From: Piscinibacter sp.
GTDB taxonomy: Bacteria > Pseudomonadota > Gammaproteobacteria > Burkholderiales > Burkholderiaceae_C
DNA: 64,000 bases
Strand: one strand, 5' to 3'
Assembly: GCF_036377015.1 (NCBI RefSeq)
Contig: NZ_DASUZE010000116.1
Every line of letters starts with the position of its first letter. Position 1 is the first letter of the stretch. Shown piece by piece: positions 6,259 to 34,065 of this stretch. The translations under genes were made by a program, and so were the position numbers. The notes under the pieces were generated by a model. That model worked only from the letters and a program-made list of their open reading frames with translations. It had not been told where the DNA came from and did not search any database.

Positions 6259-10274
<4,016 letters not shown>

Positions 10275-20836: not shown

Positions 20837-20875
20837 GGTGTTCCCTCGGATGTCGGACGTTGGCGATGGGGCGCG

Positions 20876-20922
20876 AGTCTGATCGGAGGGCCCTGCAGCC
20901 ACATCGCCCGTTGGAGCCATGG
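20876..20922 (-). promoter_or_regulatory. CGATG box copy 1 plus -10 (CAGACT) upstream of lipoprotein
   Basis: Sense CCATGGCTCCAACGGGCGATGTG (20900-20922), 18 nt, CAGACT (20876-20881). Confidence 0.7.
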
Positions 20923-20943
20923 CCCGTTCGGGCGAGCGCGGCG

Positions 20944-22338
20944 TCAACGGTCGACCCGCGCGCACCCGCCGTCCGGCAGCTCGCCTTCGCGCATCAGCCG
21001 CAGACGAACGGCCGGCTGGACCAGCGCCGGATCCAGCGCCAGTGCAACCTCGAAGGCCCGTCGCGCCTGCGCGCTGCGGCAATCGAGGGCCAGCGCGTGG
21101 CCCAGGTTGGCGAAGGCGCGCGCGTTGTGCGGCGACTTGCGAGCCACGTCGCCCCAGTAGGCGATCTCGTCGGCATAGACGCGGTTGCGCTCCCAGGTGG
21201 CGCAGCCCAGCACGAGCAGGATCATGGGCACCAGCCAGGCCTGCACGCCGCGCGGCACGCATCGAACGAGCGCCCACGCCGCGAGAAAGGCCGGACCGAC
21301 CAAGGCGAGGTAGAGCTGGCGCTCGTTGGCCAGGTCCAGTCGCGGCAACAGCGAGTTCGTCGGGGCGAGCCACAGCAGGAACCACAGCAGTGCGAAGGCA
21401 GCGACGCGATGGCGCCGCAGGCCCCACGCGCCGGCCACGAGCAGTGCGATCCAGACCGCGGCGTGCGCCATCGAAAGCAGTCCAGGCGCGGTCTCGACGA
21501 TCAGCGCCGGATCGGCATTGAGCCCGTCCAGCCGCACCAGCTGGCCGGCGAGATAGGACACGGCCTGGGCCTGCGCCAGCAGGTTGTCGCCCAGCTCGCG
21601 CGCCGCCAGGCTGGCTGCCAGCAGCTCCCGGTAGCGCGGCACGGCGCACGCCGCGATCAACGCGGCCGCGACCAGCAGCAGGTGCAGCCGGCTGTCGCGC
21701 CATGCGCTGCGCCACCACGCGCCATCGCCGGCCAGCACGCCGGCGCACAGCCACAGCGCGGCCGGCACGACGAGCGCGAACTCCTTGCAGGCCAGGGCCG
21801 CCCCCAGCGCCAGCGGCGACGCGACGAAGACGAGGGCCCGGCTGCCTCGATCGCGCCCCTGCAGCCACAGCGCGATGCTCGCGAGCGCGAAGAACGCCGC
21901 CAGCGAGGTCGAGCGCCCCGACACGTAGGTCACCGCCTCGGTCTGCACCGGGTGCAAGGCGAACACCGCCGTTGCGAGCCAGGCCGTGCGACGGCGACCT
22001 TCCTCGTCGAGCGCCAGCCGCGAGGCCAGGCGCCGCAGCAGCCAGGCCACCCACAAGGTGTTGCCGGCGTGCACGGCGAGGTTGACGGCATGGAAGCCCG
22101 CCAGCCCCCAGCCGGACACATGGTTCAGCGCGACGCTCAGCTTGAGCAGCGGCCGGATGCCCGGCTGCGCACGCCACCAGGCCGACACCGACTGCACGCT
22201 GGATTCGCGCACGATGACGTTGAAGTCGTCGAACTGGAAGCCACCCGCGAAGGCATTGGCATACGCCAGCGCGACGGCGACGAGCAAGGCCAGGCCGAAC
22301 CAGGCCACCGGCACCGGCAGTGGGGCCGCGTCACGCAT
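20944..22338 (-). CDS. TMTC-like GT-C membrane glycosyltransferase with C-terminal TPR
   Basis: DD motif after first TM (GGFQFDDFNVI), HPVQTEAVTYVSGR, ERQLYL, multiple TM helices, TPR-like tail (ARAFANLGHAL). Confidence 0.7.
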   Translation of the reverse strand: MRDAAPLPVPVAWFGLALLVAVALAYANAFAGGFQFDDFNVIVRESSVQSVSAWWRAQPGIRPLLKLSVALNHVSGWGLAGFHAVNLAVHAGNTLWVAWLLRRLASRLALDEEGRRRTAWLATAVFALHPVQTEAVTYVSGRSTSLAAFFALASIALWLQGRDRGSRALVFVASPLALGAALACKEFALVVPAALWLCAGVLAGDGAWWRSAWRDSRLHLLLVAAALIAACAVPRYRELLAASLAARELGDNLLAQAQAVSYLAGQLVRLDGLNADPALIVETAPGLLSMAHAAVWIALLVAGAWGLRRHRVAAFALLWFLLWLAPTNSLLPRLDLANERQLYLALVGPAFLAAWALVRCVPRGVQAWLVPMILLVLGCATWERNRVYADEIAYWGDVARKSPHNARAFANLGHALALDCRSAQARRAFEVALALDPALVQPAVRLRLMREGELPDGGCARVDR

Positions 22339-22352
22339 GTGCCACTCGCCCT

Positions 22353-23363
22353 TCAGCGCCCGAACAGGCCCTTGAGCAGCTGCCTGCCCTTCTCGATCGC
22401 CTCCTGGCGCGGGCTGCCCTCGGACGCTGCCGGTGCAGGCTCGGCGCCGGCGGTGCTCGAGACCTTGCGGATGCGCGTGCCGCCCCCGGCCAGGGTGGGA
22501 TCGTCCGACGCCACCGCGCCGCAGAACTCGCGGTACTTCTCCGCCGGCGGCGAGCTGAAGTTGCGGCCCGCGCATTCGCGCACCACCAAGGCACGCGCAT
22601 AGCCGCGCGAGACGCACCCGTTGACCAGCACGCCCAGCGCTTCCTGCTGCTCGGCGAGCCGGCACACGCTGGTGCTGATCGCCTCGTCGCTGGTGCCGCA
22701 GAGCTCGGCGCCTTCCTTCAGGTCGCCGCTGCTGATGCCGGCGACCATCGACGGGCGGCGGTTGCCGACGAGCGCGAAGCCCTCGGCCGATTGCAGGCGC
22801 CGGCAGAAGTCGGCCTTGTACTTCGGCTCGCACTGCCAGGGCGAGTCGGCGCGCAGGTTCTGCGGCATCAGGTTGTCGACCGCCGACTTGCACTGCATGA
22901 CCCGGACGTCGTCGGCCTGGCGCTGCGCCGAGGCGGCCTGCTGCTTCACCGCGGCCAGCTGGCGCCTGGCCTCGCCGGCGTCGCACTCGCCCACGCGGCG
23001 GCCGCTCATCTTCATGGTCATGCTGCGACCGGCCATGTCCATCGTCCAGGCGCCCTGGTAGCGGTCGCGGCCCTCGTAGCGGATCTCGCCCGAGCCGCTC
23101 AGGTTGCCCTCGCAGCGCATCTTCCAGGCCATGCCGCTCGCGCTGCGACGCACATCCAGCATCTCGCAGTGGCCGCTGGGGTCCGACAGGGGCGCGCTCT
23201 CGTTGCCCTTGGGGCTGCAGCGGCGATGCGTCTGGGGCCGCGCCGGCATGCCGCTCATCTGCGCCTCGACGGTGTCTTCCCAGAGATCACCGGGTTCGGT
23301 GGGCGGCTGCGCCCAGGACACGCTGGCGCCCCAAAGGCACAGCAGGACAAGCGTTCGGATCAT
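22353..23363 (-). CDS. Secreted DUF3617-like protein with Cys-rich C-terminal extension
   Basis: Signal peptide; PGDLWEDT, C...CEM...WKMRCEG, SGRRVGEC; 8 further Cys in the extension. Confidence 0.72.
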   Translation of the reverse strand: MIRTLVLLCLWGASVSWAQPPTEPGDLWEDTVEAQMSGMPARPQTHRRCSPKGNESAPLSDPSGHCEMLDVRRSASGMAWKMRCEGNLSGSGEIRYEGRDRYQGAWTMDMAGRSMTMKMSGRRVGECDAGEARRQLAAVKQQAASAQRQADDVRVMQCKSAVDNLMPQNLRADSPWQCEPKYKADFCRRLQSAEGFALVGNRRPSMVAGISSGDLKEGAELCGTSDEAISTSVCRLAEQQEALGVLVNGCVSRGYARALVVRECAGRNFSSPPAEKYREFCGAVASDDPTLAGGGTRIRKVSSTAGAEPAPAASEGSPRQEAIEKGRQLLKGLFGR

Positions 23364-23391: not shown

Positions 23392-23438
23392 ACTCTAGGC
23401 AGCCGGCGCGCCGGCGGCATCGGTCAAAGGAGCCATCG
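23392..23438 (-). promoter_or_regulatory. CGATG box copy 2 plus -10 (TAGAGT) upstream of DUF3617-TMTC operon
   Basis: Sense CGATGGCTCCTTTGACCGATGCC (23416-23438), 18 nt, TAGAGT (23392-23397). Confidence 0.75.
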
Positions 23439-23479: not shown

Positions 23480-26152
23480 ATGATCACGCCTGCCATCGCT
23501 GCGCAGAGCTTTGCGCTCACCAAGATCCAGGCCCCGCGGCCGCGCTCGCGGCTGATCGAGCGCGACGCGCTCGAGCAGCGCCTCGCCGAGGCGCTCGCGC
23601 ACAAGCCGCTGGTGCTGATCAGCGCACCCGCGGGCTTCGGCAAGACCGCCGCCATCACGCGCCAGCTCAACCTGCTGCCGGCAGGCACGGCGCTGGCCTG
23701 GGTGGCAGCCGACGAAGACGACGACCTCGGCCGTCTGGCGGCCTGCCTGATCGCCGCGCTGGAGCCCTTCGACCTGCCTTGGCGCACCTCGCCCGACGCG
23801 CTGGTGGCCGCCCAGGACGGCCAGCGCACGACCCGCCAGGCGCTGGCCAGCGAGCTGCTCAACGCGCTGGCCGCCACCGAAGTGCCGCGCGGGCTCATCG
23901 TGCTCGACGACGCACATCGCATCTCGGATCCCGCGGTGTTCGACTTCCTCGACACGCTGCTCGAGCGCATGCCGCCGCACTGGAGCCTGCTCATCGCCAG
24001 CCGCGTCGATCCGCCCCTGGCCCTCGCCAGGCGGCGCGCGCGCGGCGAGCTGGCGGAGTTCCGCCAGCAGGACCTGGGCTTCTCCGGCGAGGAGGTGCGC
24101 GACCTGGTCCACGAACGCGGCCTGCGCTGGACGCAGGAGCAGATCGACCAACTGGCCGAGCGCACCCAGGGTTGGCCGGCCGGCCTGGGGCTGGCCCTGA
24201 ACCACGGCGGCGCCACGCCGGCGGGCAACTTGCGCGACCGCCACGTGTTCGACTACCTCGCCACCGAGGTGCTCGACGGCCTGGAGCCCTCCCTGCGTGC
24301 GTTCCTGCTGCGCTGCTCGGTGCTGCCCGAGCTGACGGCGGCGCGCTGTGCGATGGTCAGCGGCGATCCCCTCGCGCCGCGCCGCCTCGAAGAGATCGAG
24401 CGGCGCGGCCTGTTCGTCTCGGTGCGCGGCGAGGAGCGCGGCGAGCCCATCCTGTGCCTGCACGACCTGTTCCGCGATTGCCTCGACGAGCGCCTGCGCA
24501 GCGAGCTCGGGCCGGAGCTGCCGGTGCTGCTCCAGCGCGCGGCCGACACCGAGCCCGACCTGGTCCGCCGCATCGGCTACCTGGCCCGCGCCGGCGCGTG
24601 GCGGACCGCCGAGGAAACGCTGTACGAGCTCGGCCCGGGCTTGCTCGCCCGCGGCGCGGTCGTGCCCATGCTGCGACTGCTGGAGCAATTCCCGGCCGCG
24701 CAGCGCGAGGAGTCTCCGCTGCTCGCTCACCTGCGCGGCCTGTGCGCCTGGGCCCACTGGGACCTGCTCACCATGTGCCGCTCGCTCGAGCGCGCCGCCC
24801 GCGCCTTCGCGGAACGCGGCATGCCCGGCGCCGCACAGCGCGCCCAGGTGCTGGTGGTGCTCGGCCTGGCCGCCGGTGGGCAGGTGCTGCGCTCGATGGA
24901 GCTGCTCGAAGCGCTGCGCCGCCAGCCCCTCGACAGCGCCACCGAGACCACCTGCTGGCAGGCCAGCAGCTGGCATGCGCTGGCGGCCTCTCACTTCGAC
25001 CAAGTGGCCGTACCCTTCACCCGCACCCTGGACCTGCTCGAGCGCAGCGAGGACCCCTTGCTGTGGCTGCAGTGCGTCCCGCTGACCTCGTTCGTCGGCC
25101 TGCCCCACACCCGTGCTCCGCTGCGGCGCTACATCGACGGCGCCCTGCGCCGCTCGCCCGAGGAGCCGCCCTCGCCGATGCGGGTGCTGGCGCATGCCCT
25201 GCAGGCCGGCTCGTGGCTATGGGAAGGCCGGGTCGAGGAAGCGGCCGAGCTGCTGGCGCGCGCCGACAAGGACTGCCGCTGGCTGAACCGGCCGCCCAAC
25301 CTGAGCGGCTACATCCATCTCTTCACCGGCCTGACGCAGGCCGTGCTCGGACATCGCGAGGCGGCGCTGGCGGCGGCCCAGTCGCGCCTGGACGGCCTGG
25401 AAGACGAGCGCACCAGCGGGCGCCGCGCGACCTGGCTGAGCCACTTCCTGTACGCCAAGGCCCGCGTCGCGCTGATCCTCGACGACGACGCCACGGTGCG
25501 CGAGATGGCCGCGCGCATCGCCGAGCGACACACGCCGGACGAAGTGCCGTTCTTCGTGCGCGAGCGGGGCCCGCTGCCGGGCCACCTGGCCGCGCTCGAC
25601 GAACGTTGGGACGAGGCTGCGGCGCGCTACGCGGCGGCACTCAACGATGCGCGCGGCATCGACATCTACGGCCAGGCGATCGAGACCCGGGTGCGCCTGG
25701 CCCACGCGCTGGTGATGCTGGGGCGCTTGCCCGAGGGGGCGCAGGCCCTCGCGCCGGTGTTCGCGGACGCACGCGCCGGCGGCGAGACCGGGCCGGTGCT
25801 GTTCGCCGGCGCCCGGGTGTGGCGCGCGCTCGGCGCGGCGCACTGGCGCGACCACCTGTCCGCCGGCGATCGCAGCCTGCTGGCCGGCTGGGCCCGGCGC
25901 ATGGAGGCCTTGCGCAGCGAGCCGGACGAGCCGGCCGCCGCGCCGGCCGCCGGCACCGGCGCCGTCGCGCTCAGCGCCCGCGAGCGCGACGTGCTCGCGC
26001 GCATCGCCTCCGGCGACAGCAACAAGCTCATCGCCCGCGCCTTCGACCTCAGCCCGCACACCGTGAAGCGTCACGTGGCGAACATCCTCGACAAGCTCGC
26101 CGTGCAGTCGCGCGGCCAGGCCGCGTCGTGGTACCGGGCGCACTCCCGGTAG
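23480..26152 (+). CDS. MalT-like STAND ATPase / LuxR HTH transcriptional activator 1
   Basis: APAGFGKT Walker A, LIVLDDAH Walker B, TQGWPAG, helical sensor region, C-terminal LuxR HTH. Confidence 0.92.
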   Translation: MITPAIAAQSFALTKIQAPRPRSRLIERDALEQRLAEALAHKPLVLISAPAGFGKTAAITRQLNLLPAGTALAWVAADEDDDLGRLAACLIAALEPFDLPWRTSPDALVAAQDGQRTTRQALASELLNALAATEVPRGLIVLDDAHRISDPAVFDFLDTLLERMPPHWSLLIASRVDPPLALARRRARGELAEFRQQDLGFSGEEVRDLVHERGLRWTQEQIDQLAERTQGWPAGLGLALNHGGATPAGNLRDRHVFDYLATEVLDGLEPSLRAFLLRCSVLPELTAARCAMVSGDPLAPRRLEEIERRGLFVSVRGEERGEPILCLHDLFRDCLDERLRSELGPELPVLLQRAADTEPDLVRRIGYLARAGAWRTAEETLYELGPGLLARGAVVPMLRLLEQFPAAQREESPLLAHLRGLCAWAHWDLLTMCRSLERAARAFAERGMPGAAQRAQVLVVLGLAAGGQVLRSMELLEALRRQPLDSATETTCWQASSWHALAASHFDQVAVPFTRTLDLLERSEDPLLWLQCVPLTSFVGLPHTRAPLRRYIDGALRRSPEEPPSPMRVLAHALQAGSWLWEGRVEEAAELLARADKDCRWLNRPPNLSGYIHLFTGLTQAVLGHREAALAAAQSRLDGLEDERTSGRRATWLSHFLYAKARVALILDDDATVREMAARIAERHTPDEVPFFVRERGPLPGHLAALDERWDEAAARYAAALNDARGIDIYGQAIETRVRLAHALVMLGRLPEGAQALAPVFADARAGGETGPVLFAGARVWRALGAAHWRDHLSAGDRSLLAGWARRMEALRSEPDEPAAAPAAGTGAVALSARERDVLARIASGDSNKLIARAFDLSPHTVKRHVANILDKLAVQSRGQAASWYRAHSR

Positions 26153-26165
26153 CGCCGGTGCGGGG

Positions 26166-27140
26166 TCAGGCCGTGACGGCCTGCGCGCCCACCAGGCCCA
26201 GCGCCGCGTCGCGGATCGCCTCCATCTGCGGCACCCCGGCCTGCTCCAGCACCCACGATCCCGCTGCCGGCGCATCGGGGCCTGTCAGGCGGCGCACCGG
26301 TGCGGTGAGCGCGTCGAAGGCTTTCTCGCTCACGAACGCGGCAACTTCGGCACCGACGCCGCACAGACCGTTGGCCTCGTGGACCACGATGAGCCGGCCG
26401 GTCTTGCGCACCGACGCCAGCACCGTGGCCTCGTCGATGGGCTTGAGCGTGCGCAGGTCGATCAGCTCGGCGTCGACGCCGCTGTCGGCCAGCGACTGCG
26501 CTGCGGCGAGGCACGCACCGACGGTCTTGGCGTAAGACACCAGCGTCACGTCGCGGCCTTCGCGCAGCACCGCCGCCTTGCCGATGGGCACGACGTGATC
26601 GCCTTCGGGCACCGGCCCCGGCGCGTGCGCCAGCGCCAGGTCCATGAAGAACATGACCGGGTTGTCGTCGCGAATGGCGGCCTTCATCAGGCCCTTGAAG
26701 TCCGCTGCATTGGAGGGCATCACCACCTTCAGGCCGGGCGCGTGGACGAACATCGCCTCGAGGTTGTGGTTGTGCTGCCCGCCGACGCTCCAGCCCGCGC
26801 CGGTCATGGTGAGCACGACCATCGGGAACTCGAACTGCCCGCCCGAAAGGTAGCGCAGCTTGCCGGCGCTGTTGATGATCGCGTCCATCGACAGCGTGAG
26901 GAAGGGCGCGAAGAGCAGGTCGACGACCGGGCGCAGGCCGGTCGCGGCAGCGCCCGCGGCGGTGCCGGCGATGATGCCCTCGGCCAGCGGCGTGTTGCGC
27001 ACGCGCTCGGGTCCGAACTCGGCGAGGAGGTCGTGGCGCTTGGTGGCCACGCCCTCGCCGAACATCAGCACGCGCGGGTCGCGGCGCATCTCTTCGGCCA
27101 GGGCCTGGCCGACGGCATCGGAAACGGTGATGGTTTGCAT
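26166..27140 (-). CDS. 2-oxoacid/acetoin dehydrogenase-like E1 beta subunit
   Basis: RVRNTPLAEG, PGLKVVMPS, DNPVMF, ELIDLRTLKP, VRKTGRLIVVHE. Confidence 0.9.
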   Translation of the reverse strand: MQTITVSDAVGQALAEEMRRDPRVLMFGEGVATKRHDLLAEFGPERVRNTPLAEGIIAGTAAGAAATGLRPVVDLLFAPFLTLSMDAIINSAGKLRYLSGGQFEFPMVVLTMTGAGWSVGGQHNHNLEAMFVHAPGLKVVMPSNAADFKGLMKAAIRDDNPVMFFMDLALAHAPGPVPEGDHVVPIGKAAVLREGRDVTLVSYAKTVGACLAAAQSLADSGVDAELIDLRTLKPIDEATVLASVRKTGRLIVVHEANGLCGVGAEVAAFVSEKAFDALTAPVRRLTGPDAPAAGSWVLEQAGVPQMEAIRDAALGLVGAQAVTA

Positions 27141-27160
27141 GGTGCGAAGACTCCGGGAGT

Positions 27161-28126
27161 TCAGGCGTAGACGTCGGTGGCGAGCTCGCGCAGGTCGGGC
27201 CAGGCCGAGGCTTGCGCGAAGGCCAGGGCGGCCTCGACGGTGTCGGACACGCGCTGGCGCAGATGGGCCAGCTCGCCGGGCAGCAGCACGCCATCGTCCA
27301 GCAGGCGCTGGCTCATCAGCGCGATCGGGTCGCGCGCCTTCCAGGCCGCGAGCTCCTTCGCGTCGACATAGGCCTGGTCGTCCGGCTCGAAGTGGCCGCG
27401 CTGGCGATAGGTGGTCAGCTCGAGGAACTGCGGCTGGCCGGTGGCCCGAATCGCGGCCACGGCCTCGCTCGCGGCCGCGTGCACCGCCTCGACGTCGTTG
27501 CCGTCGACGGTGCGCACCCCGATGCGGTGGCCGCGCACCCAGTCGGCGACGTGCTCGACCGGCATGGTCTCGTCGCGCCGCACGTAGGCCTGCCACTGGT
27601 TGTTCTCGCACACGTAGAGCAAGGGCAGCTGCCAGGTCACGGCGAGGTTGATCGACTCATGGAAGATGCCCTCGCAGGCCGCTCCGTCGCCGAAGAACAC
27701 GGTGGTGATGCCGCCCGGCTCCTGGTGCCCCATCTTCTGCGACAGGGCGACGCCGGGCGCGAGCGACAGCTCGCCGCCGACGATGGTCGAGGTGAGCACC
27801 ACGCCCAGTTCCTTGGCCGAGACGTGCAGCGAGCCGCTCTTGCCCTTGCAGTAGCCGTCGGCGCGCCCCATCACCTCGGCCATCAGCCGCCCGGGATCGG
27901 CGCCGCGCGCCAGCAGGTGACCGGCGCTGCGGTGGTTGGTGAGGATGCGGTCGCGCGACTGCAGGGCGTGCACCACGCCGACGGCGGCGGCTTCCTGGCC
28001 GACCGACGTGCAGGTGCCGGGCGAGGTGGGCGTGGCCAGCGACGCGAGCCGCTCCTCGTGGGCGCGGATCAGCATCATGGTCTCCAGCATGGAGATGCGG
28101 GCGAGTGGATCGGGAATGGATGGCAT
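27161..28126 (-). CDS. ThDP-dependent E1 alpha subunit (AcoA/PdhA-like)
   Basis: GQEAAAVG, TNHR, GKSGSLH, FFGDGA...ENNQW ThDP motif, TYRQRGHFEPD. Confidence 0.9.
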   Translation of the reverse strand: MPSIPDPLARISMLETMMLIRAHEERLASLATPTSPGTCTSVGQEAAAVGVVHALQSRDRILTNHRSAGHLLARGADPGRLMAEVMGRADGYCKGKSGSLHVSAKELGVVLTSTIVGGELSLAPGVALSQKMGHQEPGGITTVFFGDGAACEGIFHESINLAVTWQLPLLYVCENNQWQAYVRRDETMPVEHVADWVRGHRIGVRTVDGNDVEAVHAAASEAVAAIRATGQPQFLELTTYRQRGHFEPDDQAYVDAKELAAWKARDPIALMSQRLLDDGVLLPGELAHLRQRVSDTVEAALAFAQASAWPDLRELATDVYA

Positions 28127-28156
28127 GGCGGGCTCGCGGTGTGGATCGGAGCCGGG

Positions 28157-28203
28157 ACTGTAGGAAGCGGGGCGCGCCGCCACATCGTCCGAAGGAGCCA
28201 TCG
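28157..28203 (-). promoter_or_regulatory. CGATG box copy 3 plus -10 (TACAGT) upstream of E1 alpha/beta
   Basis: Sense CGATGGCTCCTTCGGACGATGTG (28181-28203), 18 nt, TACAGT (28157-28162). Confidence 0.78.
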
Positions 28204-28233
28204 CGCCGATGGCGGCGGGCCATGGCCCGCGAT

Positions 28234-30930
28234 TCAGCCCTTCAGGTCGCGCCAGCGAGCCGCGGCCTGACCACGCGTGGCCACGCCCAGCTTGTCGAGG
28301 ATGTTGGCGACGTGGCGCTTCACGGTGTGCGGGCTGAGGTCGAAGGCGCGAGCGATCAGCTTGTTGCTGTCGCCGGCCGCCATGCGTTGCAGGACCTCGC
28401 GTTCGCGCTCGCTGAGCACGGCCAGCGCATCGCCAGCCTCGGGCCGGCGCGCGGCCCGGGCTGCGGCAGGGACCGGCTCGACCGGCACGGCCGGCACGGT
28501 GATCGGCGCAGCCGGGAACAGGCCCGGCAGGCGCCGCAGCAGCGCGGACTCGGCCGGCCCCAGGCGGCCTCCCCAGTCCGCTGCGGCCAGCCGCTGCAGT
28601 GCCGGGCGACCGGCCAGCAGCGCTCCGCCCACCTCGCCGTCGTGCACGACCCGCGAGAGCCACGGCGCGAGCGTGGCCGCCGCCGCGTCCAGCGCGCCCA
28701 GGCGCAGCTCGACGTCGGCCAGCATCATCGTCATCTGCGTCGACGGGAAGAAGCACGACGCATCGGGCTTCCCCGCCAGCGGCTGCAGCAGCTCGCGCGC
28801 TTCGTCGAGCCGATCGTCGAGCAGCGCGAGCATGGCGCGCGTGGCGCGCCGGTCGTCGTCGGCCGCTGCCCACTCGTACGCATTGCCGGTGCGCGCGATG
28901 GCGCCGGCGAGCGAGCGCAGCACGGCGGAGTCGCCGATCAGCCAGGCCGCCCGCACGTAGGTGAACAGCTCCTCGTACTCATGGGTGAGCCGGTTGCTAC
29001 GCAGCGAGTTCTCCTCGAGGTCGCGCTTGTTCTCCTCGGCAGCGGCGAAGCTCGCCTCGCGGTCGCCGCGCACGGCGTCGATCAGCGTGTGCGCCATCCA
29101 GTTCTCGGTCATGAGGCTGCGCGGGCGACCCAGCCAGCGTACGTCTTCGTCGGCGCGCGCCAGCCATTGCGCAGCCTCGTCGACGCGGCCCTGGGAGAAG
29201 GCCAGCCAGGCGCGGATGTGCATCACGCCGGCACGCAGCTGGGTCGGCGAGTCGCTCAGCACGCGCATCGCGCCGGCGGCGAAGCGCTCGAGCAGCGGCC
29301 GCATGCCCGGCAGGCCGGTGAGCAGGCTCACGAAGAAGCAGCGGTCCCAGACCTGCGGGTCGTGCGAGCGCTCCAGCGCCTGCAGCATCTCGGTGACCCG
29401 GGGCGCGACGTCGTCGGCGCGCATCTGCGCGTAGGCGGCCCAGGCGCTGCCGAAGCACACGAAGGGACGCACCGTGTCGTCCAGCGACAAGGCACGCAGG
29501 CGGTCGAGCTCGGCACTGGCCGACGGCAACTGCCCGGTGTTCTGCATGGCGACACAGGCATAGGCTTGCGCCAAGGCCGCCTCCTGCGGGCGGCCGTCGC
29601 GCTCGTAGCCCTCGGCCGCCCGCCGCATGGCGGCGCACATGCCGTCGAAGTCGAAGCGCGGGAAGGTGGTGAGGCCGTGCAGCAGGTGCAGGCCCGGCCG
29701 GCGCACGAACTCGGACAGCGGAAACTGCGCGAGCATCTGCTCCAGCGCGGGTCCGCCGCCCATGGCGACCAGCGCCGGGCCGCGCTCCATGAGGACGCGG
29801 CTGGCGGCGTCCCAGTCGGCGGCGCGGGTGAGGTAGCCCACCGCCCGCACCGGGTCGGTCTCGTCGTCGGCGGCGCGGCGCAGCAGGTAGGGCACCTCCT
29901 GCGGGTACTCGCGCTGCAGCCGGTCCTCGAGGAAGTCGCGGAACAGGTCGTGCAGGCGCAGGGTGAGCTCGTCGGCGTCGAGGGTGACGACGAACAGGCC
30001 GCGCCGCTCCACCTCTTCGAGCAGGCGCGCGGTCCGCGGGATGCGGCTCACGTGCTCGCAGCGCGTGGCGGTGAGCTCGGGCAGCACCGAGCAGCGCAGC
30101 AGGAACCAGCGCAGGTCCGCCGGCATGTCGTCGAGCACCTCGCTGGCGAGGTAGTCGAACAGGTGGCGCTGGGTGGGCGAGCCCACCCCCAGGGGCGCAC
30201 CGCCGGGGCGGGCCGACAGGCTCAGGCGCAGGCCGGCGGCCCAGCCGTCGGTGCGGGCCAGCAGCTCGCGCGAGGCGGACGGCGCGGGCGTCGCGCCGTT
30301 GTCGGCCAGCAAGGCGGCGACTTCCGATTCGTTGAAGCGCAGGTCGTACTGGCGGAACTCCGCCAGCTCGCCGCCGGCCCGCCAGCGGGCCAGGGTCAGC
30401 GGCGGCTCGACCCGGCTGGCGATGGCCACGCCCCACTGCTCGGGCAGCCGGTCGAGCATCGCCTGGAGCAGGTCGAACACCTGCGGGTCGGCGATGCGGT
30501 GGGCGTCGTCGATGACGATGACGCCGCGCTGGACCTCGGCCGAGGCGAGCGCGTTGACCAGCTCGCTGGCAACGTCGCGCAGGCCGCGCTCGGCCTGGGC
30601 CAGCGTGGCCAGCGCCTCGGGCGAGACCCGCCAGGGCAGGTCGTGCGGCTCCAGCGCCGTGGTCAGGCAGGCCAGGAAGCGCTGCAGCTGGTCGTCCTCG
30701 TCGGCCGACACCCAGGCCAGCGCACAACCGGGCGGCAGGCGGCGGATCTGGCGGGTGAGCGCGGCCGTCTTGCCGTAGCCGGCCGGGGCGACCAGCAGGG
30801 TCAGGCGGTGCTGCTGCAAGGCGGCGTCGAGGGCCTGCTCCAGGGCGGGGCGCTCGACCAGCCCGGTGCGCGGCCGGGGGGGCTGGATCTTCGCGAGCGC
30901 AAAGGCGGGAAGCGAGGCCGTCGACTGCAT
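28234..30930 (-). CDS. MalT-like STAND ATPase / LuxR HTH transcriptional activator 2
   Basis: APAGYGKT, IVIDDAH, TDGWAAG, C-terminal HTH nearly identical to activator 1. Confidence 0.92.
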   Translation of the reverse strand: MQSTASLPAFALAKIQPPRPRTGLVERPALEQALDAALQQHRLTLLVAPAGYGKTAALTRQIRRLPPGCALAWVSADEDDQLQRFLACLTTALEPHDLPWRVSPEALATLAQAERGLRDVASELVNALASAEVQRGVIVIDDAHRIADPQVFDLLQAMLDRLPEQWGVAIASRVEPPLTLARWRAGGELAEFRQYDLRFNESEVAALLADNGATPAPSASRELLARTDGWAAGLRLSLSARPGGAPLGVGSPTQRHLFDYLASEVLDDMPADLRWFLLRCSVLPELTATRCEHVSRIPRTARLLEEVERRGLFVVTLDADELTLRLHDLFRDFLEDRLQREYPQEVPYLLRRAADDETDPVRAVGYLTRAADWDAASRVLMERGPALVAMGGGPALEQMLAQFPLSEFVRRPGLHLLHGLTTFPRFDFDGMCAAMRRAAEGYERDGRPQEAALAQAYACVAMQNTGQLPSASAELDRLRALSLDDTVRPFVCFGSAWAAYAQMRADDVAPRVTEMLQALERSHDPQVWDRCFFVSLLTGLPGMRPLLERFAAGAMRVLSDSPTQLRAGVMHIRAWLAFSQGRVDEAAQWLARADEDVRWLGRPRSLMTENWMAHTLIDAVRGDREASFAAAEENKRDLEENSLRSNRLTHEYEELFTYVRAAWLIGDSAVLRSLAGAIARTGNAYEWAAADDDRRATRAMLALLDDRLDEARELLQPLAGKPDASCFFPSTQMTMMLADVELRLGALDAAAATLAPWLSRVVHDGEVGGALLAGRPALQRLAAADWGGRLGPAESALLRRLPGLFPAAPITVPAVPVEPVPAAARAARRPEAGDALAVLSEREREVLQRMAAGDSNKLIARAFDLSPHTVKRHVANILDKLGVATRGQAAARWRDLKG

Positions 30931-30992: not shown

Positions 30993-31039
30993 CGATGGCT
31001 CTTTCGGGCGATGTGCGTTCACCATCGCCTCCGGACACT
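30993..31039 (+). promoter_or_regulatory. CGATG box copy 4 plus -10 (GACACT) upstream of cupin
   Basis: CGATGGCTCTTTCGGGCGATGTG (30993-31015), 18 nt, GACACT (31034-31039). Confidence 0.75.
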
Positions 31040-31046
31040 CGCCGCC

Positions 31047-31379
31047 ATGCACGTCGTCCACCATGCCCACCTGCCCCACCTGCACCTCGGCGACGAACTG
31101 TGCATTGCCGTCGCCGACCGCAGCCGCGGCATCACGGGCTTCGAGGTCTGGCTGCGCACGCTCGCCCCCGGCGCCCACACCGAGGCGCTGCGCCACGCCG
31201 GCGAGCTGGTGGTGCTGGCCCTGGCCGGCGGCGGCAAGCTGCTGATCGACGGCGGGCCGCAGCGCTTCAGCGGGCCCTGCACCTTGCTGATCCCGGCCGG
31301 CGCGCAGTTCCAGCTGGTCAATCAAGGGACTGAGCCGCTGCAGCTGGTCTGGGTGTTCACGAGTCCGCCGACCGTGTAA
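31047..31379 (+). CDS. Small cupin-fold protein (degenerate metal site)
   Basis: FEVWLRTLAPG...RHAGELVVLALAGGG and LLIPAGAQFQLVNQGTEPL cupin pattern. Confidence 0.72.
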   Translation: MHVVHHAHLPHLHLGDELCIAVADRSRGITGFEVWLRTLAPGAHTEALRHAGELVVLALAGGGKLLIDGGPQRFSGPCTLLIPAGAQFQLVNQGTEPLQLVWVFTSPPTV

Positions 31380-31414
31380 CCCCCCGGAAGGGGTGGCCCG
31401 TCGCCGTGGTCCTC

Positions 31415-31461
31415 CGATGGCTCCTTCGACCGATGTGCGATCGGCCGCCGATCCAGACACT
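31415..31461 (+). promoter_or_regulatory. CGATG box copy 5 plus -10 (GACACT) upstream of hemerythrin-like pair
   Basis: CGATGGCTCCTTCGACCGATGTG (31415-31437), 18 nt, GACACT (31456-31461). Confidence 0.78.
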
Positions 31462-31492
31462 GGCGGCCTTCGACAACGCCACGGACACCGCC

Positions 31493-32059
31493 ATGCCCAC
31501 CCTCCCCATCGACATCGTCGTCGCGGCCCACAAGGCCACCCGCCGCTTCATGTTCGAGACCCTGGTCGCGATCGGCGCGCTGGACGTCACCGACGGCCAC
31601 GACATCGACCGCAGCCTGAACCTGCTCGAGCGCCTGCTCGAGGTGCTGGGCGAGACCCGGGACGACTGGCGCGACACGATCCACGGCCTGCGCCACGGCG
31701 CCGCCAGCCAGCGCCGCGGCCTGGCCGCCCGGCTCTATCGCGACCTCGCCGAGCTGGTCAGCCGCGAGCTGGCGCGCCTGCAGCGGCGCGAGGCCCAGGC
31801 CGGCGCGCAACCGGCCGCCGTGGCGCTCGAACGCCTCGACGACGACGAGCTGCGCGGCGCGCTGCACTGGATGGAAGGCGCCCTGACCCCGCAGGAGCTG
31901 GCGGGCCTCCTGGACCAGCTGCACACGCATGCGAACGCACCCCGCTTCAACCTCGCGCTGGCCGTGCTCGCCGAACGCATGGACAACCGGCGCTGGCACC
32001 AGCTCGCCCGCGCCCTCGACCTCCATCGCGACACGGCCCCCGTGGCCCTGGCCGCCTGA
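31493..32059 (+). CDS. Degenerate hemerythrin-like protein, paralogue of the next gene
   Basis: Shares HKAxRxFM, GxLDVTD, LYRxLA, WxxxALTPxExAGxL and WxxLA blocks with 32087-32809. Confidence 0.7.
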   Translation: MPTLPIDIVVAAHKATRRFMFETLVAIGALDVTDGHDIDRSLNLLERLLEVLGETRDDWRDTIHGLRHGAASQRRGLAARLYRDLAELVSRELARLQRREAQAGAQPAAVALERLDDDELRGALHWMEGALTPQELAGLLDQLHTHANAPRFNLALAVLAERMDNRRWHQLARALDLHRDTAPVALAA

Positions 32060-32086
32060 TCCCTTTCCTTCACACGGAGCCTGTTC

Positions 32087-32809
32087 ATGATTGCCGACAC
32101 CCTCGCCCCCCGCCACGCGCCGCGCTACGACCTGTACGCGGGCATCCACAAGGCGGCGCGGGCCTTCATGACCGACACCCTGGGTCGCATCGGCCGCCTC
32201 GATGTCACCGACGACGCGGACACGCGGGCTGCCTTGACGCAGCTCGAGGCGCTGCTCGCCTTCTGCGAGAAGCACCTGCAGCACGAGAACGAGTTCGTGC
32301 ACCCGGCGATCGAGGCCCGCGAGCCCGGCAGCGCCGGCCGCATCGCCGCCGAGCATCGTGAGCACCTCGAGGCCATCGCGGCGCTGCGCGAGGACGCACG
32401 CCAGCTGCTGGTCGCCGCGCTGCCGCAGCGCGCATCGCTGGCCCTGCGCCTGTACCGCCACCTGGCCCTGTTCGTCGCCGAGAACTTCGAGCACATGCAC
32501 GTCGAGGAGACGCTGCACAACGCGACACTCTGGACCCACTACAGCGACGAGGAGCTGCACGCGCTGCACGGCCGCCTCAAGGCGAGCATCGCCCCCCCGG
32601 ACATGCTGGAGGTCCTGCGCTGGCTGGTCCCGGCGCTCACCCCGGCCGAGCGCGCCGGCATGCTCAACGGCGCCAAGGCCGAGATGCCGGCAACGGCTTT
32701 CCAGGCGATGGTCGGCTACGTGCGGCCGCACCTCGACGCGACGGCCTGGAACAAGCTCGCGCCGGCCATCGGGGTCGAGCGCGACCCGCGCTTCGCGCAC
32801 GTCGGCTGA
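32087..32809 (+). CDS. Hemerythrin/HHE-domain protein
   Basis: IHKAAR, HLQHENEFVHP, AEHREH, EHMHVEE His/Glu metal-ligand pattern. Confidence 0.8.
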   Translation: MIADTLAPRHAPRYDLYAGIHKAARAFMTDTLGRIGRLDVTDDADTRAALTQLEALLAFCEKHLQHENEFVHPAIEAREPGSAGRIAAEHREHLEAIAALREDARQLLVAALPQRASLALRLYRHLALFVAENFEHMHVEETLHNATLWTHYSDEELHALHGRLKASIAPPDMLEVLRWLVPALTPAERAGMLNGAKAEMPATAFQAMVGYVRPHLDATAWNKLAPAIGVERDPRFAHVG

Positions 32810-32813
32810 ATCC

Positions 32814-32853
32814 GGCTGCGCGCTTGCTGCGTAGACGCAGCAAGCGCGCAGCC
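32814..32853. repeat. Perfect 18-bp inverted repeat (hairpin) after the hemerythrin gene
   Basis: GGCTGCGCGCTTGCTGCG-TAGA-CGCAGCAAGCGCGCAGCC. Confidence 0.85.
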
Positions 32854-32870
32854 TGACGGCGCAATGCACT

Positions 32871-33106
32871 GCTCCCCCTGCCCCCCTCCGCGAGGGGGTT
32901 CCAGCTTGTTCGACGACACCCACCAGCCTCCCTCCGAGAGGGAGGCTCCGGCATGCATGAAAGGCCGGCCTACGGCCGGCACCCTGCTCAACGTGATGAC
33001 GTCGCCAAGGTGTTGCGTCAAACGCGCTGGAGCCTCCCTCTCGGAGGGAGGCTGGAGGGAGCAGTCGAACAAGCTGGAACCCCCTCTCGGAGGGGGCCTG
33101 GGGAGC
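32871..33106. repeat. REPIN/MITE-like element: two about 78-bp inverted arms around an about 80-bp spacer
   Basis: 32871-32949 is a near reverse complement of 33029-33106; each arm holds CCCCCTCCG(A/C)GAGGGGG and GCCTCCCTCCGAGAGGGAGGC palindromes. Confidence 0.8.
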
Positions 33107-33159
33107 GGTGCGTTAAGTCATGCCGGCCAAAGGCCGGCTTCAACCAAGGTGATAAACCA

Positions 33160-34065
33160 ATGAACAAGTGGATCAAGCGCTCGCTGATCGCCGTCGCGGG
33201 CTTGGCCACGCTGGGCGCGGCTGGGCTGTCGCTGGGCGCTTACTTGGGCGACCGCAAGGCAACTCGGCATGTGGACGTGGCGGTGCGCGCCGTCGCCATC
33301 CCCGCCGACGCCGCCGGCCTGGAGCGCGGCCGCTATCTCTTCGCCACCCGCGGCTGTGTCGACTGCCACGGCGCCGACGGCGCGGGGCATGCCTTCATCG
33401 ACGACAAGGGCGGCTTCTATGCCAAGGCGCCCAACATCAGCACGGGCGACGGCAGCGTGGTCGCCGCCTACCGGCCGGAAGACTGGGTGCGCACCATCCG
33501 CCATGGCGTCAAGCCCGATGGCCGGCCGGCCTTCATCATGCCCAGCGAGGACTACAACCGCCTCACCGACACCGACCTCGGCGCGCTGGTCGCCTACGTG
33601 AAGCAGCTGCCGCCGGCGCGCGGCGAAGGCCTGGTGGCACGCGTGCCGGCGCTGGTCAAGACGCTGTACGCCGCGGGCGTGATCCGCGACGCCGCCGAGA
33701 AGATCGACCACGCCCTGCCGCCGGCGGCCCCGGTTCCCGAGGACGGATCGCCGGCGCACGGCGCCTACGTCGCCAACATGTGCCAGGGCTGCCACGGGCC
33801 GCACCTGTCGGGCGGCAAGATCCCCGGCGGTCCGCCCGACTGGCCGGCGGCGGCCAACCTGACGCCGGGCGAAGGCAGCGCGCTGGGGCGCTACGAGAAC
33901 GCCGACCAGTTCATCGCCATGCTGCACACGGGCAAGCGGCCGGATGGCTCGCCGGTGAGCTCGGTGATGCCGTTCACGTCGTTGCGCGAGCTGAGCGACA
34001 ACGACGCGAAGGCGCTGTATGCGCACTTGAAGCAGCTCGCACCGGTCGCCTTCGGCAACCGGTAG
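33160..34065 (+). CDS. Membrane-anchored diheme c-type cytochrome
   Basis: N-terminal TM; CVDCH and CQGCH heme motifs; APNIS/AANLTP, distal MP motifs. Confidence 0.9.
   Translation: MNKWIKRSLIAVAGLATLGAAGLSLGAYLGDRKATRHVDVAVRAVAIPADAAGLERGRYLFATRGCVDCHGADGAGHAFIDDKGGFYAKAPNISTGDGSVVAAYRPEDWVRTIRHGVKPDGRPAFIMPSEDYNRLTDTDLGALVAYVKQLPPARGEGLVARVPALVKTLYAAGVIRDAAEKIDHALPPAAPVPEDGSPAHGAYVANMCQGCHGPHLSGGKIPGGPPDWPAAANLTPGEGSALGRYENADQFIAMLHTGKRPDGSPVSSVMPFTSLRELSDNDAKALYAHLKQLAPVAFGNR

What the first reader, a model, noticed from the sequence alone, without database searches (positions are those of the whole stretch)
23480..30930. Two MalT-like STAND regulators with an identical recognition helix but divergent sensor regions
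Both carry the identical 29-aa HTH stretch GDSNKLIARAFDLSPHTVKRHVANILDKL and similar NTPase domains, while their central helical sensor regions are visibly unrelated at the sequence level. Each is divergent from a CGATG-box promoter, and together they bracket the E1 genes. Inference: two different ligands feed into one DNA output (OR logic), or the proteins hetero-oligomerise as MalT-type STANDs oligomerise on ligand.
Basis: partly seen in the sequence, partly recalled or inferred. Interest (0 to 1): 0.62.

Follow-up and report, generated by a model that had tools for sequence, protein, structure and literature searches.

The report
Paired MalT-like activators sharing one box
Two large ATP-dependent MalT-like regulators with the same DNA-reading helix but different sensor domains sit beside five promoters that share one 23-bp site, an ordinary kind of regulator in a tidy several-sensors, one-DNA-site layout that recurs in related freshwater betaproteobacteria.

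Summary
Reg1 (23480-26152, +) and Reg2 (28234-30930, -) are full-length MalT/LAL-type STAND-LuxR proteins. They share the exact 29-aa HTH stretch, bracket E1alpha/E1beta genes, and each diverges from a box promoter.

Two points need correcting:
- **The sensors are related.** They are 33% identical, colinear, E 5e-44.
- **The identical helix is not special to this pair.** 51 of 119 database homologues carry the same 29-mer and 91 of 119 the same 16-aa recognition helix. Six synonymous differences argue against gene conversion.

Reg1 and Reg2 belong to two old clades of a Sphaerotilaceae subfamily.
- **Divergence sits in the sensor.** The between/within-clade identity ratio is 0.53, against 0.80 for the NOD and 0.92 for the HTH. 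33 of 41 clade-specific conserved positions lie there.
- **One box.** The box (ATGGCTCCTTCGGnCGATGtG, 18 nt before a -10, centre about -42) occurs only five times in the genome, all in this locus.
- **Box and family go together.** Relatives carry it next to single regulators of either clade or to mixed adjacent pairs.

The most likely reading is several ligand-specific activators acting on one box. Mixed oligomers remain untested, and the ligands are unknown. This is a new member of a known kind. The scan had already noted the regulon on this same DNA.

The parts
23480..26152 (+). Reg1: MalT/LAL-type STAND-LuxR activator, 890 aa, clade R1. Walker A APAGFGKT, Walker B VLDDAH, all-helical sensor about residues 400-815, GerE HTH 830-884.
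   Evidence: AF2 model pLDDT 91.5. Best fold match is the MalT NOD 8BOB, TMt 0.81. Clade from the tree.
26012..26098 (+). Reg1 codons for the 29-aa stretch GDSNKLIARAFDLSPHTVKRHVANILDKL.
   Evidence: 6 synonymous differences from the Reg2 copy over 87 nt.
26166..27140 (-). E1 beta subunit (Transket_pyr + Transketolase_C), 324 aa. Its stop lies 13 bp from the Reg1 stop, with the two genes convergent.
27161..28126 (-). ThDP-dependent E1 alpha subunit (E1_dh), 321 aa.
28181..28203 (-). Box 3, CGATGGCTCCTTCGGACGATGTG. It lies 30 bp after the Reg2 stop and 18 nt before the -10 TACAGT (28162-28157). E1alpha promoter.
28234..30930 (-). Reg2: MalT/LAL-type STAND-LuxR activator, 898 aa, clade R2. Walker A APAGYGKT, Walker B VIDDAH, GerE HTH 838-890.
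28288..28374 (-). Reg2 codons for the same 29-aa stretch.
23416..23438 (-). Box 2, CGATGGCTCCTTTGACCGATGCC, with -10 TAGAGT 18 nt downstream. Promoter of the DUF3617 gene. It lies 42 bp from the Reg1 ATG on the other strand.
30993..31015 (+). Box 4, CGATGGCTCTTTCGGGCGATGTG, with -10 GACACT at 31034-31039. Cupin promoter. It lies 62 bp from the Reg2 ATG on the other strand.
31415..31437 (+). Box 5, CGATGGCTCCTTCGACCGATGTG, with -10 GACACT at 31456-31461. Promoter of the hemerythrin-like pair and the cytochrome c gene.
20900..20922 (-). Box 1, CCATGGCTCCAACGGGCGATGTG, with -10 CAGACT. Promoter of the 561-aa lipoprotein gene.
31047..34065 (+). Core regulated genes: cupin (31047-31379), hemerythrin-like paralogue (31493-32059), HHE hemerythrin (32087-32809), di-haem cytochrome c (32953-34065).
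   Evidence: The same genes carry boxes in relatives.
19151..23363 (-). Accessory regulated genes: DUF3617 protein (22353-23363), TPR-tailed membrane protein (20944-22338), lipoprotein (19151-20836).
   Evidence: Orthologues with boxes are present in G003 and G008.

Best explanation
Reg1 and Reg2 are two autonomous members of a MalT-like (LAL, STAND-LuxR) activator subfamily found in Sphaerotilaceae (Burkholderiales).

Shown:
- Both have an intact NOD, an arm, a helical-repeat sensor and a LuxR HTH whose recognition helix is invariant across the subfamily.
- They belong to two old clades that differ mainly in the sensor.
- A single 21-23-bp box sits at a fixed 18 nt before a sigma-70-type -10 hexamer at five local promoters. 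That puts its centre near -42.
- The box co-occurs with this regulator family across genera.

Inferred:
- Each protein, when its own ligand binds the arm-sensor, exchanges ADP for ATP and multimerises as MalT does.
- It then occupies the shared box as a class-II activator.
- The regulon therefore integrates at least two different signals. It comprises a core of cupin, hemerythrin and cytochrome c, plus E1alpha/beta and an envelope-protein operon.
- A third paralogue on another contig, with the same recognition helix and no box of its own, may be a further input.
- The boxes lie 42 and 62 bp from the regulators' own start codons, so occupancy probably also affects their own transcription.
- The ligands are unknown.
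For: Architecture:
- Pfam and NCBIfam domain hits.
- PDB sequence match to the MalT NOD, E 9e-34.
- AF2 model pLDDT 91.5 with an all-alpha sensor.
- Foldseek best hit 8BOB MalT, TMt 0.81, then the STAND-TPR structure 6MFV.

Shared DNA output:
- Identical 29-mer. The 16-aa recognition helix is identical in 91 of 119 homologues.
- Five boxes in the genome, all in this locus.
- 31 boxes from 18 loci give ATGGCTCCTTCGGnCGATGtG-N18-nACAcT.

Box and family go together:
- Across 121 genera, 11 of 14 genomes with the regulator have a strict box, against 5 of 107 without it. Fisher p 1e-9, although related genomes are not independent samples.

Either clade alone suffices:
- Only an R2-type regulator lies beside the boxes in G008, G001 and G002 (G008 and G001 hold further paralogues elsewhere).
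- Only an R1-type lies beside the box in L048.
- G007, 100% complete, has a single family member (clade R5) with three boxes, including one at E1alpha.

Sensor-specific divergence:
-.

Old, co-inherited pair:
- R1 and R2 subtrees are congruent for the window, L045, L046 and L047.
- R1 and R2 are convergent neighbours there.

MalT paradigm: PMC4381067.
Against: - No binding, expression or ligand data exist.
- Paralogues with the same recognition helix sit at loci without any box: own contig C57, and G008 loci L039 and L043. An identical helix therefore does not prove identical targets.
- MalT promoters use arrays of short boxes, whereas here there is one long asymmetric box per promoter.
- In several relatives the two regulator genes are 12-25 bp apart and probably co-transcribed. 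That would also suit a protein complex.
- The two geldanamycin LAL regulators are both required, which is AND rather than OR logic (PMC6784220).
Confidence: 0.55

Rival explanations
1. Reg1 and Reg2 co-assemble through their conserved NODs into mixed oligomers. This would give AND or sensor-plus-helper logic, as in NAIP/NLRC4 or paired plant NLRs. The active species at the box would then be a heteromer.
For: - The NOD and arm are the best-conserved large regions: 54-56% between clades, with 35-39% of positions invariant in both clades.
- About half of the surveyed loci carry two adjacent regulators from different clades: 11 pairs against 11 singles.
- Tandem pairs 12-25 bp apart look co-transcribed.
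- R1 and R2 have been co-inherited across genera.
- GdmRI and GdmRII are both strictly required for geldanamycin synthesis (PMC6784220).
Against: - Both proteins keep intact Walker A and B motifs and a full sensor, so neither looks like a degenerate helper.
- R1-type and R2-type regulators each occur alone next to boxes. One 100%-complete genome (G007) has a single family member with three boxes.
- In this window the two genes are transcribed separately.
Confidence: 0.2
2. Only one of the two (most likely Reg2, whose orthologues are the regulators next to the boxes in the same genus) drives the five promoters. Reg1 would then have another target or act upstream of Reg2, or be a redundant passenger that came with the locus.
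For: - Three congeners (G008, G001, G002) run the cupin, hemerythrin and DUF3617 boxes with only an R2 orthologue at the locus.
- Other paralogues with the same helix lie at box-free loci.
Against: - R1-type regulators are the ones directly upstream of the box operon in L048, L052 and L056.
- Reg1 shows purifying selection, with within-clade sensor identity of 54% and intact motifs.
- There is no other box-like motif in the genome for Reg1 to use.
Confidence: 0.15
3. One paralogue antagonises the other. It would compete for the same box, or poison the other's oligomers, and so set a threshold or veto.
For: An identical HTH would allow competition for the one box per promoter. The boxes overlap the regulators' own upstream regions.
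Against: Nothing marks either protein as activation-deficient. Both HTH domains are 71% identical and carry the family-invariant residues.
Confidence: 0.07

Closest known systems
MalT of Escherichia coli (STAND transcription activator; PMC4381067; PDB 8BOB)
   Same: - Same domain order: NOD with Walker A/B, arm, helical-repeat sensor, C-terminal LuxR HTH.
- The N-terminal 440 residues match the MalT model (E 1e-60 and 1e-68) and the MalT NOD structure (TMt 0.81).
- The site overlaps the -35 region of promoters that lack a -35 consensus.
   Different: - Scores of 206 and 232 bits are far below the MalT equivalog cutoff of 537.
- There are no maltose genes nearby.
- The sensor half does not match the MalT model.
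- Each promoter has one 21-23-bp asymmetric box instead of arrays of 10-bp MalT boxes.
- There are several paralogues per genome.
GdmRI/GdmRII (and other multi-LAL clusters) of Streptomyces (PMC6784220)
   Same: Two large ATP-binding LuxR-family regulators are encoded in one gene cluster. They are not simple duplicates and both act positively on the same cluster.
   Different: - GdmRI and GdmRII are only 26% identical and their binding sites are unknown.
- Here the pair is 45% identical, with an invariant recognition helix and a readable common box.
- The host is a proteobacterium and the targets are not a biosynthetic cluster.
AcoK of Klebsiella pneumoniae (MalT-like activator of the acetoin dehydrogenase operon; recalled from memory, cited within PMC4381067)
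   Same: A MalT-like regulator next to ThDP-dependent E1alpha/E1beta genes.
   Different: - No E2 or E3 genes lie in the locus.
- The conserved core of the regulon in relatives is hemerythrin plus cytochrome c. E1alpha/beta are present only in some genomes.
- Sequence similarity to AcoK was not tested.
Paired or helper NLRs (NAIP/NLRC4, plant NLR pairs)
   Same: STAND paralogues with diversified sensors and conserved oligomerisation modules, often encoded side by side.
   Different: There is no evidence of co-assembly here. Both partners are complete, and each clade also works alone in other genomes.

Membership tests
MalT/LAL-type STAND-LuxR transcription activators | N-terminal NOD (NBD-HD-WHD) with Walker A and B motifs | tested here: met
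   - AAA_22 and AAA_16 hits.
- GxGKT and hhhhDD are present in both proteins, and G52, G54, K55 and D144 are invariant in 118 homologues.
- PDB MalT NOD match, E 9e-34.
- Foldseek 8BOB, TMt 0.81.
MalT/LAL-type STAND-LuxR transcription activators | Arm plus helical-repeat (TPR/SUPR-like) sensor between the NOD and the DNA-binding domain | tested here: met
   - The AF2 model (pLDDT 91.5) shows an uninterrupted run of paired helices from about residue 361 to 812.
- The second fold hit is the STAND-TPR protein 6MFV.
- There is a weak TPR_16 hit in Reg2.
- A SUPR subtype was not specifically resolved.
MalT/LAL-type STAND-LuxR transcription activators | C-terminal LuxR/GerE-type HTH | tested here: met
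   GerE E 8e-17 and 1e-17. NarL DNA-binding domain hits.
MalT/LAL-type STAND-LuxR transcription activators | Inducer- and ATP-dependent multimerisation that enables promoter binding | not testable with these tools
   This needs biochemistry. It is inferred only from the MalT paradigm (PMC4381067).
MalT proper (NCBIfam NF003420 equivalog, maltose regulon activator) | Full-length score above the curated cutoff and a maltose or maltodextrin gene context | tested here: not met
   - Scores of 205.7 and 231.9 bits against a cutoff of 537, and only model positions 5-445 match.
- Neighbouring genes are E1alpha/beta, cupin, hemerythrin and cytochrome c.
AcoK-type acetoin-operon activators | Control of a complete acoABCD-type operon (E1alpha, E1beta, E2, E3) | tested here: not met
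   - Only E1alpha and E1beta are present. No lipoyl, E2 or E3 gene lies between 18.5 and 37 kb.
- E1alpha/beta are absent from most related box loci.
Obligate sensor/helper STAND pairs (NLR-pair type) | Partners always co-occur, and one partner is specialised or degenerate | tested here: not met
   - Single R1, R2, R4 or R5 regulators sit next to boxes in 11 of 22 surveyed loci.
- G007 has one family member in a complete genome.
- Both proteins keep all motifs.
Antiviral STAND (Avs-type) defence proteins | Match to defence-system models, or a nuclease or other effector domain | tested here: not met
   PADLOC gives only weak HTH-level hits. The effector is a LuxR HTH.

The most novel reading that the evidence does not exclude
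The Sphaerotilaceae MalT-like paralogues would form a mix-and-match set. Their near-invariant NODs and identical HTHs would let differently tuned sensors co-assemble into mixed oligomers on a single box. That would be a bacterial transcription-factor counterpart of NAIP/NLRC4-type combinatorial STAND signalling. Up to five such sensors occur per genome, and some act in trans from other loci.
Probability: 0.15. Interest if true: 0.75.

Novelty: new member of a known kind. Interest (0 to 1): 0.4.

Why it matters
How STAND sensors acquire new ligand specificity, and whether paralogues co-assemble, is mostly studied in eukaryotic NLRs. Among bacterial regulators only MalT is understood in depth.

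This subfamily is a natural series of sensor-diversified paralogues with a fixed DNA-binding domain. It also has a compact, readable target site at a fixed promoter geometry. That makes sensor-swap, ligand-screen and hetero-oligomer experiments simple to design.

It also defines a conserved but functionally unknown regulon of hemerythrin, cytochrome c and cupin genes in the Rubrivivax-Aquabacterium-Leptothrix group.

The regulators themselves are ordinary in kind.

Tried and rejected
- **Gene conversion as the cause of the identical 29-mer: rejected.** There are 6 synonymous differences in 29 codons, against 32% at other identical residues. The same 29-mer is also present in 51 of 119 homologues.
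- **Sigma-54 or ECF-type promoter reading of the box: rejected by inspection.** The spacing and bases do not fit GG-N10-GC. The conserved A and T of a sigma-70 -10 follow at a fixed 18 nt.
- **The box as an RNA element or leader ORF: rejected.** The box lies upstream of the -10, the N18 is not conserved, and there is no Rfam hit.
- **A sixth box on contig C79 (PWM 23 bits): rejected.** It is the Shine-Dalgarno sequence plus GTG start of a lipoprotein gene on the other strand.
- **Partition of promoters between the two regulators by box variants: not supported.** G008 serves the same variants with only an R2 regulator at the locus.
- **Defence-type STAND: rejected**.
- **Consensus sigma-70 promoters and terminators:** none were informative.
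Full report
**Observation**

The window has 71% G+C. Codon-position G+C and ORF listing give two large genes at exactly the stated limits:
- Reg1, 23480..26152 on the + strand, 890 aa.
- Reg2, 28234..30930 on the - strand, 898 aa.

A motif scan of all six frames finds the stretch GDSNKLIARAFDLSPHTVKRHVANILDKL in these two proteins only. It is encoded at 26012-26098 and 28288-28374.

Both proteins carry AAA_22/AAA_16 and GerE domains. Both match positions 5-445 of the NCBIfam MalT model, with E 1e-60 and 1e-68. The scores of 206 and 232 bits are well below the equivalog cutoff of 537.

Between the two genes, on the - strand, lie two ThDP-enzyme genes:
- an E1alpha gene (27161-28126, E1_dh)
- an E1beta gene (26166-27140, Transket_pyr + Transketolase_C)

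So the coordinates, the identical stretch, the similar NTPase domains and the bracketing of the E1 genes are all correct.

**The sensors are divergent but homologous**

BLASTP aligns the two proteins end to end at 45% identity with 4% gaps.

| Region (Reg1 numbering) | Identity between Reg1 and Reg2 |
|---|---|
| NBD-HD, 1-245 | 56% |
| WHD-arm, 246-400 | 54% |
| Sensor, 401-800 | 33% |
| HTH, 828-890 | 71% |

The sensors alone give E 5e-44 with 6 gap positions in 402 columns. 'Visibly unrelated' is therefore wrong. 'Markedly more divergent' is right.

**The box**

Reading the intergenic regions shows a 23-bp element, CGATGGCTCCTTCGRNCGATGTG. It has five matches in the window and none in 100 shuffles:
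- 20900-20922 (-)
- 23416-23438 (-)
- 28181-28203 (-)
- 30993-31015 (+)
- 31415-31437 (+)

A weight matrix run over the whole 6.06-Mb assembly finds only these five sites above 31 bits. The next hit, at 23 bits on contig C79, is the ribosome-binding site and GTG start of a lipoprotein gene on the other strand.

Each box is followed after exactly 18 nt by a hexamer that keeps the A and T of a sigma-70 -10. The hexamers are TACAGT, TAGAGT, GACACT (twice) and CAGACT. That places the box at about -53 to -31, with its centre near -42, which is the classical class-II activator position.

The boxes precede five transcription units:
- a 561-aa lipoprotein gene
- a DUF3617 gene followed by a TPR-tailed membrane protein
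- E1alpha/beta
- a 110-aa cupin
- a hemerythrin-like pair followed by a di-haem cytochrome c

Reg1 starts 42 bp from box 2 on the opposite strand. Reg2 starts 62 bp from box 4 on the opposite strand. Box 3 lies 30 bp after the Reg2 stop.

**The identical helix is a family trait**

The genome holds a third full-length paralogue on contig C57. It is 44% identical, its HTH is GDSNKVIARALDISPHTVKRHVANILDKL, and it has no box nearby.

Among the 119 best database homologues (46-76% identical to Reg1), 51 carry the exact 29-mer and 91 carry the exact 16-mer SPHTVKRHVANILDKL.

At the DNA level the two copies differ at 6 of 29 codons, all synonymous. Across all identical residues the figure is 32%. The identity therefore reflects purifying selection and not recent gene conversion.

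**Comparative genomics**

Named relatives place the organism in the Sphaerotilaceae. They include Pseudaquabacterium pictum, Aquabacterium, Rubrivivax, Leptothrix, Rhizobacter and Piscinibacter.

A maximum-likelihood tree of 31 regulators puts Reg1 in a clade R1 (10 rows, support 99/99) and Reg2 in a clade R2 (8 rows, support 100/100). There are at least four further clades. All have essentially the same HTH.

Synteny and box scans give the following picture.

| Arrangement at the locus | Where seen |
|---|---|
| Same as the window, including E1alpha/beta between R1 and R2 | G003 (= L053) |
| R1 and R2 as direct convergent neighbours next to box-hemerythrin-cytochrome c | L045, L046 (P. pictum), L047 |
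| R1 in tandem with R3, R4 or another clade, 12-25 bp apart | L049/G091, L051, L056, L052 |
| R2 plus R5 | G015 |
| Tandem pair, clades not assigned | G131 contig C23 |
| R2 alone | G008, G001, G002, plus G041 and G085 by identity to Reg2 |
| R1 alone | L048, L050 (no box found in L050) |
| R4 alone | L055 |
| R5 alone (the only family member in a 100%-complete genome) | G007 |
| Single regulator, clade not assigned | G121, and G131 contig C7 |

Further observations:
- Boxes sit in front of the orthologous genes in nearly all of these loci.
- In G091 the tandem regulator pair and the boxes are on different contigs.
- A compilation of 31 boxes gives ATGGCTCCTTCGGnCGATGtG-N18-nACAcT, with the 18-nt spacing kept in 29 of 31.
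- With one genome per genus across 121 genera of the family, a strict box pattern occurs in 11 of 14 genomes that have the regulator and in 5 of 107 that lack it. Fisher p is 1e-9, and related genomes are not independent samples.

Three conclusions follow. The box belongs to this regulator family. Either clade alone can accompany it. About half of the loci carry two adjacent regulators from different clades.

The R1 and R2 subtrees are congruent for the window, L045, L046 and L047. The pair is therefore old and co-inherited. In this genome E1alpha/beta and their own box appear to have been inserted between a previously convergent R1/R2 pair.

**Where the clades differ**

| Region | Within R1 | Within R2 | Between clades | Between/within ratio |
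|---|---|---|---|---|
| NBD-HD | 59% | 75% | 54% | 0.80 |
| WHD-arm | 63% | 78% | 56% | 0.80 |
| Sensor | 54% | 63% | 31% | 0.53 |
| HTH | 77% | 83% | 74% | 0.92 |

Positions conserved within each clade but different between them number 41. Of these, 33 lie in the sensor, which is 8.2% of sensor positions against 1.3-1.6% in the NOD, arm and HTH (Fisher p 3e-6).

The sensors are thus each under constraint and have diverged in a clade-specific way. This is the pattern expected for different inducers rather than for drift.

**Structure**

An AF2 model of Reg1, built on 118 homologues, has mean pLDDT 91.5 and pTM 0.85. It shows an alpha/beta NBD, a helical and winged-helix part, an unbroken run of paired helices from about residue 361 to 812, a disordered linker (818-827) and a four-helix HTH.

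The best PDB fold match is the MalT NOD (8BOB, TMt 0.81, 26% identity). It is followed by a STAND-TPR protein (6MFV), then Avs and Apaf-1. Defence-system models do not match beyond the HTH. No Rfam family matches in the region.

**Mechanism**

MalT multimerises when maltotriose binds its arm-sensor and ATP replaces ADP. It then binds its boxes cooperatively and recruits RNA polymerase (PMC4381067).

By analogy, which is inference, each paralogue here is a ligand-gated activator of the same box, so the regulon receives several inputs. I put this at about 0.55.

Mixed oligomers (about 0.2) are neither excluded nor supported directly.
- In favour: conserved NODs, frequent operonic tandem pairs, and the precedent that both geldanamycin LAL regulators are required (PMC6784220).
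- Against an obligate heteromer: single-regulator genomes, and complete motifs in both proteins.

Two further rivals are that only one of the two acts at these boxes (about 0.15) and that one antagonises the other (about 0.07).

The signal is unknown. The conserved core (hemerythrin-type di-iron protein, di-haem cytochrome c, cupin) hints at redox, oxygen or metal chemistry, but that is speculation.

**Novelty**

These are new members of the known MalT/LAL kind. They are not MalT orthologues and not an AcoK-type acetoin system, because there is no E2 or E3 gene and E1alpha/beta are accessory.

Clusters with several LAL regulators are known in actinomycetes. What is worth recording here is:
- the subfamily-wide invariant HTH
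- the readable box with fixed geometry
- the mix-and-match pairing of sensor clades

The scan had already noted the five-promoter regulon on this same DNA (e1-5246599). I re-derived it independently.

**Limits**

- There are no expression or binding data.
- No multimer prediction was available.
- Model coordinates could not be used to map the clade-specific residues.

Noticed in passing
window 26152-26166: The Reg1 and E1beta stop codons are convergent and only 13 bp apart. No terminator-like hairpin was found, so induced E1 transcription would run antisense into the Reg1 3' end. This could feed back on Reg1.
   Followed up: partly
own genome contig C57:33369-36050 (L011): A third full-length paralogue, 44% identical, clade R6 with a G008 orthologue. 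It has the same recognition helix but no box within reach. It is flanked by an unknown 348-aa ORF and an SMP-30/gluconolactonase-like gene. A more distant fourth MalT-like gene lies on C58.
   Followed up: partly
window 31034-31049: The cupin gene's first in-frame ATG (31047) lies 7 nt after the -10 hexamer GACACT (31034-31039). The mRNA would be leaderless or nearly so, unless the ATG at 31062 is used.
   Followed up: no
boxes 4 and 5 (30993-31015, 31415-31437) and their orthologues: The variable middle of the box is promoter-specific and conserved across genomes. Cupin boxes read CTCTTTCGGG and hemerythrin boxes in the same genus read CTCCTTCGAC. This may tune affinity.
   Followed up: partly
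window 19151-23363 and 26166-28126 against relatives: The regulon has a conserved core (cupin, hemerythrin, cytochrome c, next to GGT and MscS). It also has accessory units that each bring their own box: E1alpha/beta, the DUF3617 plus membrane-protein unit, and the lipoprotein gene. These are present or absent between congeners.
   Followed up: partly
window 31493-32059 and 32087-32809: The two genes after box 5 are paralogues of each other, 25-28% identical by tblastn cross-hits. Only the second matches the Hemerythrin HHE model.
   Followed up: no
L060 (G131:C7) 7478-7684: A short fragment matching residues 10-78 of the regulators lies just upstream of a complete regulator gene. It looks like the remnant of a lost second copy.
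   Followed up: no
L032/L033 (G003): Both regulator orthologues, the cytochrome c gene and the MscS gene are split across reading frames in this 20-contig MAG. Assembly indels are a more likely cause than pseudogenes.
   Followed up: no
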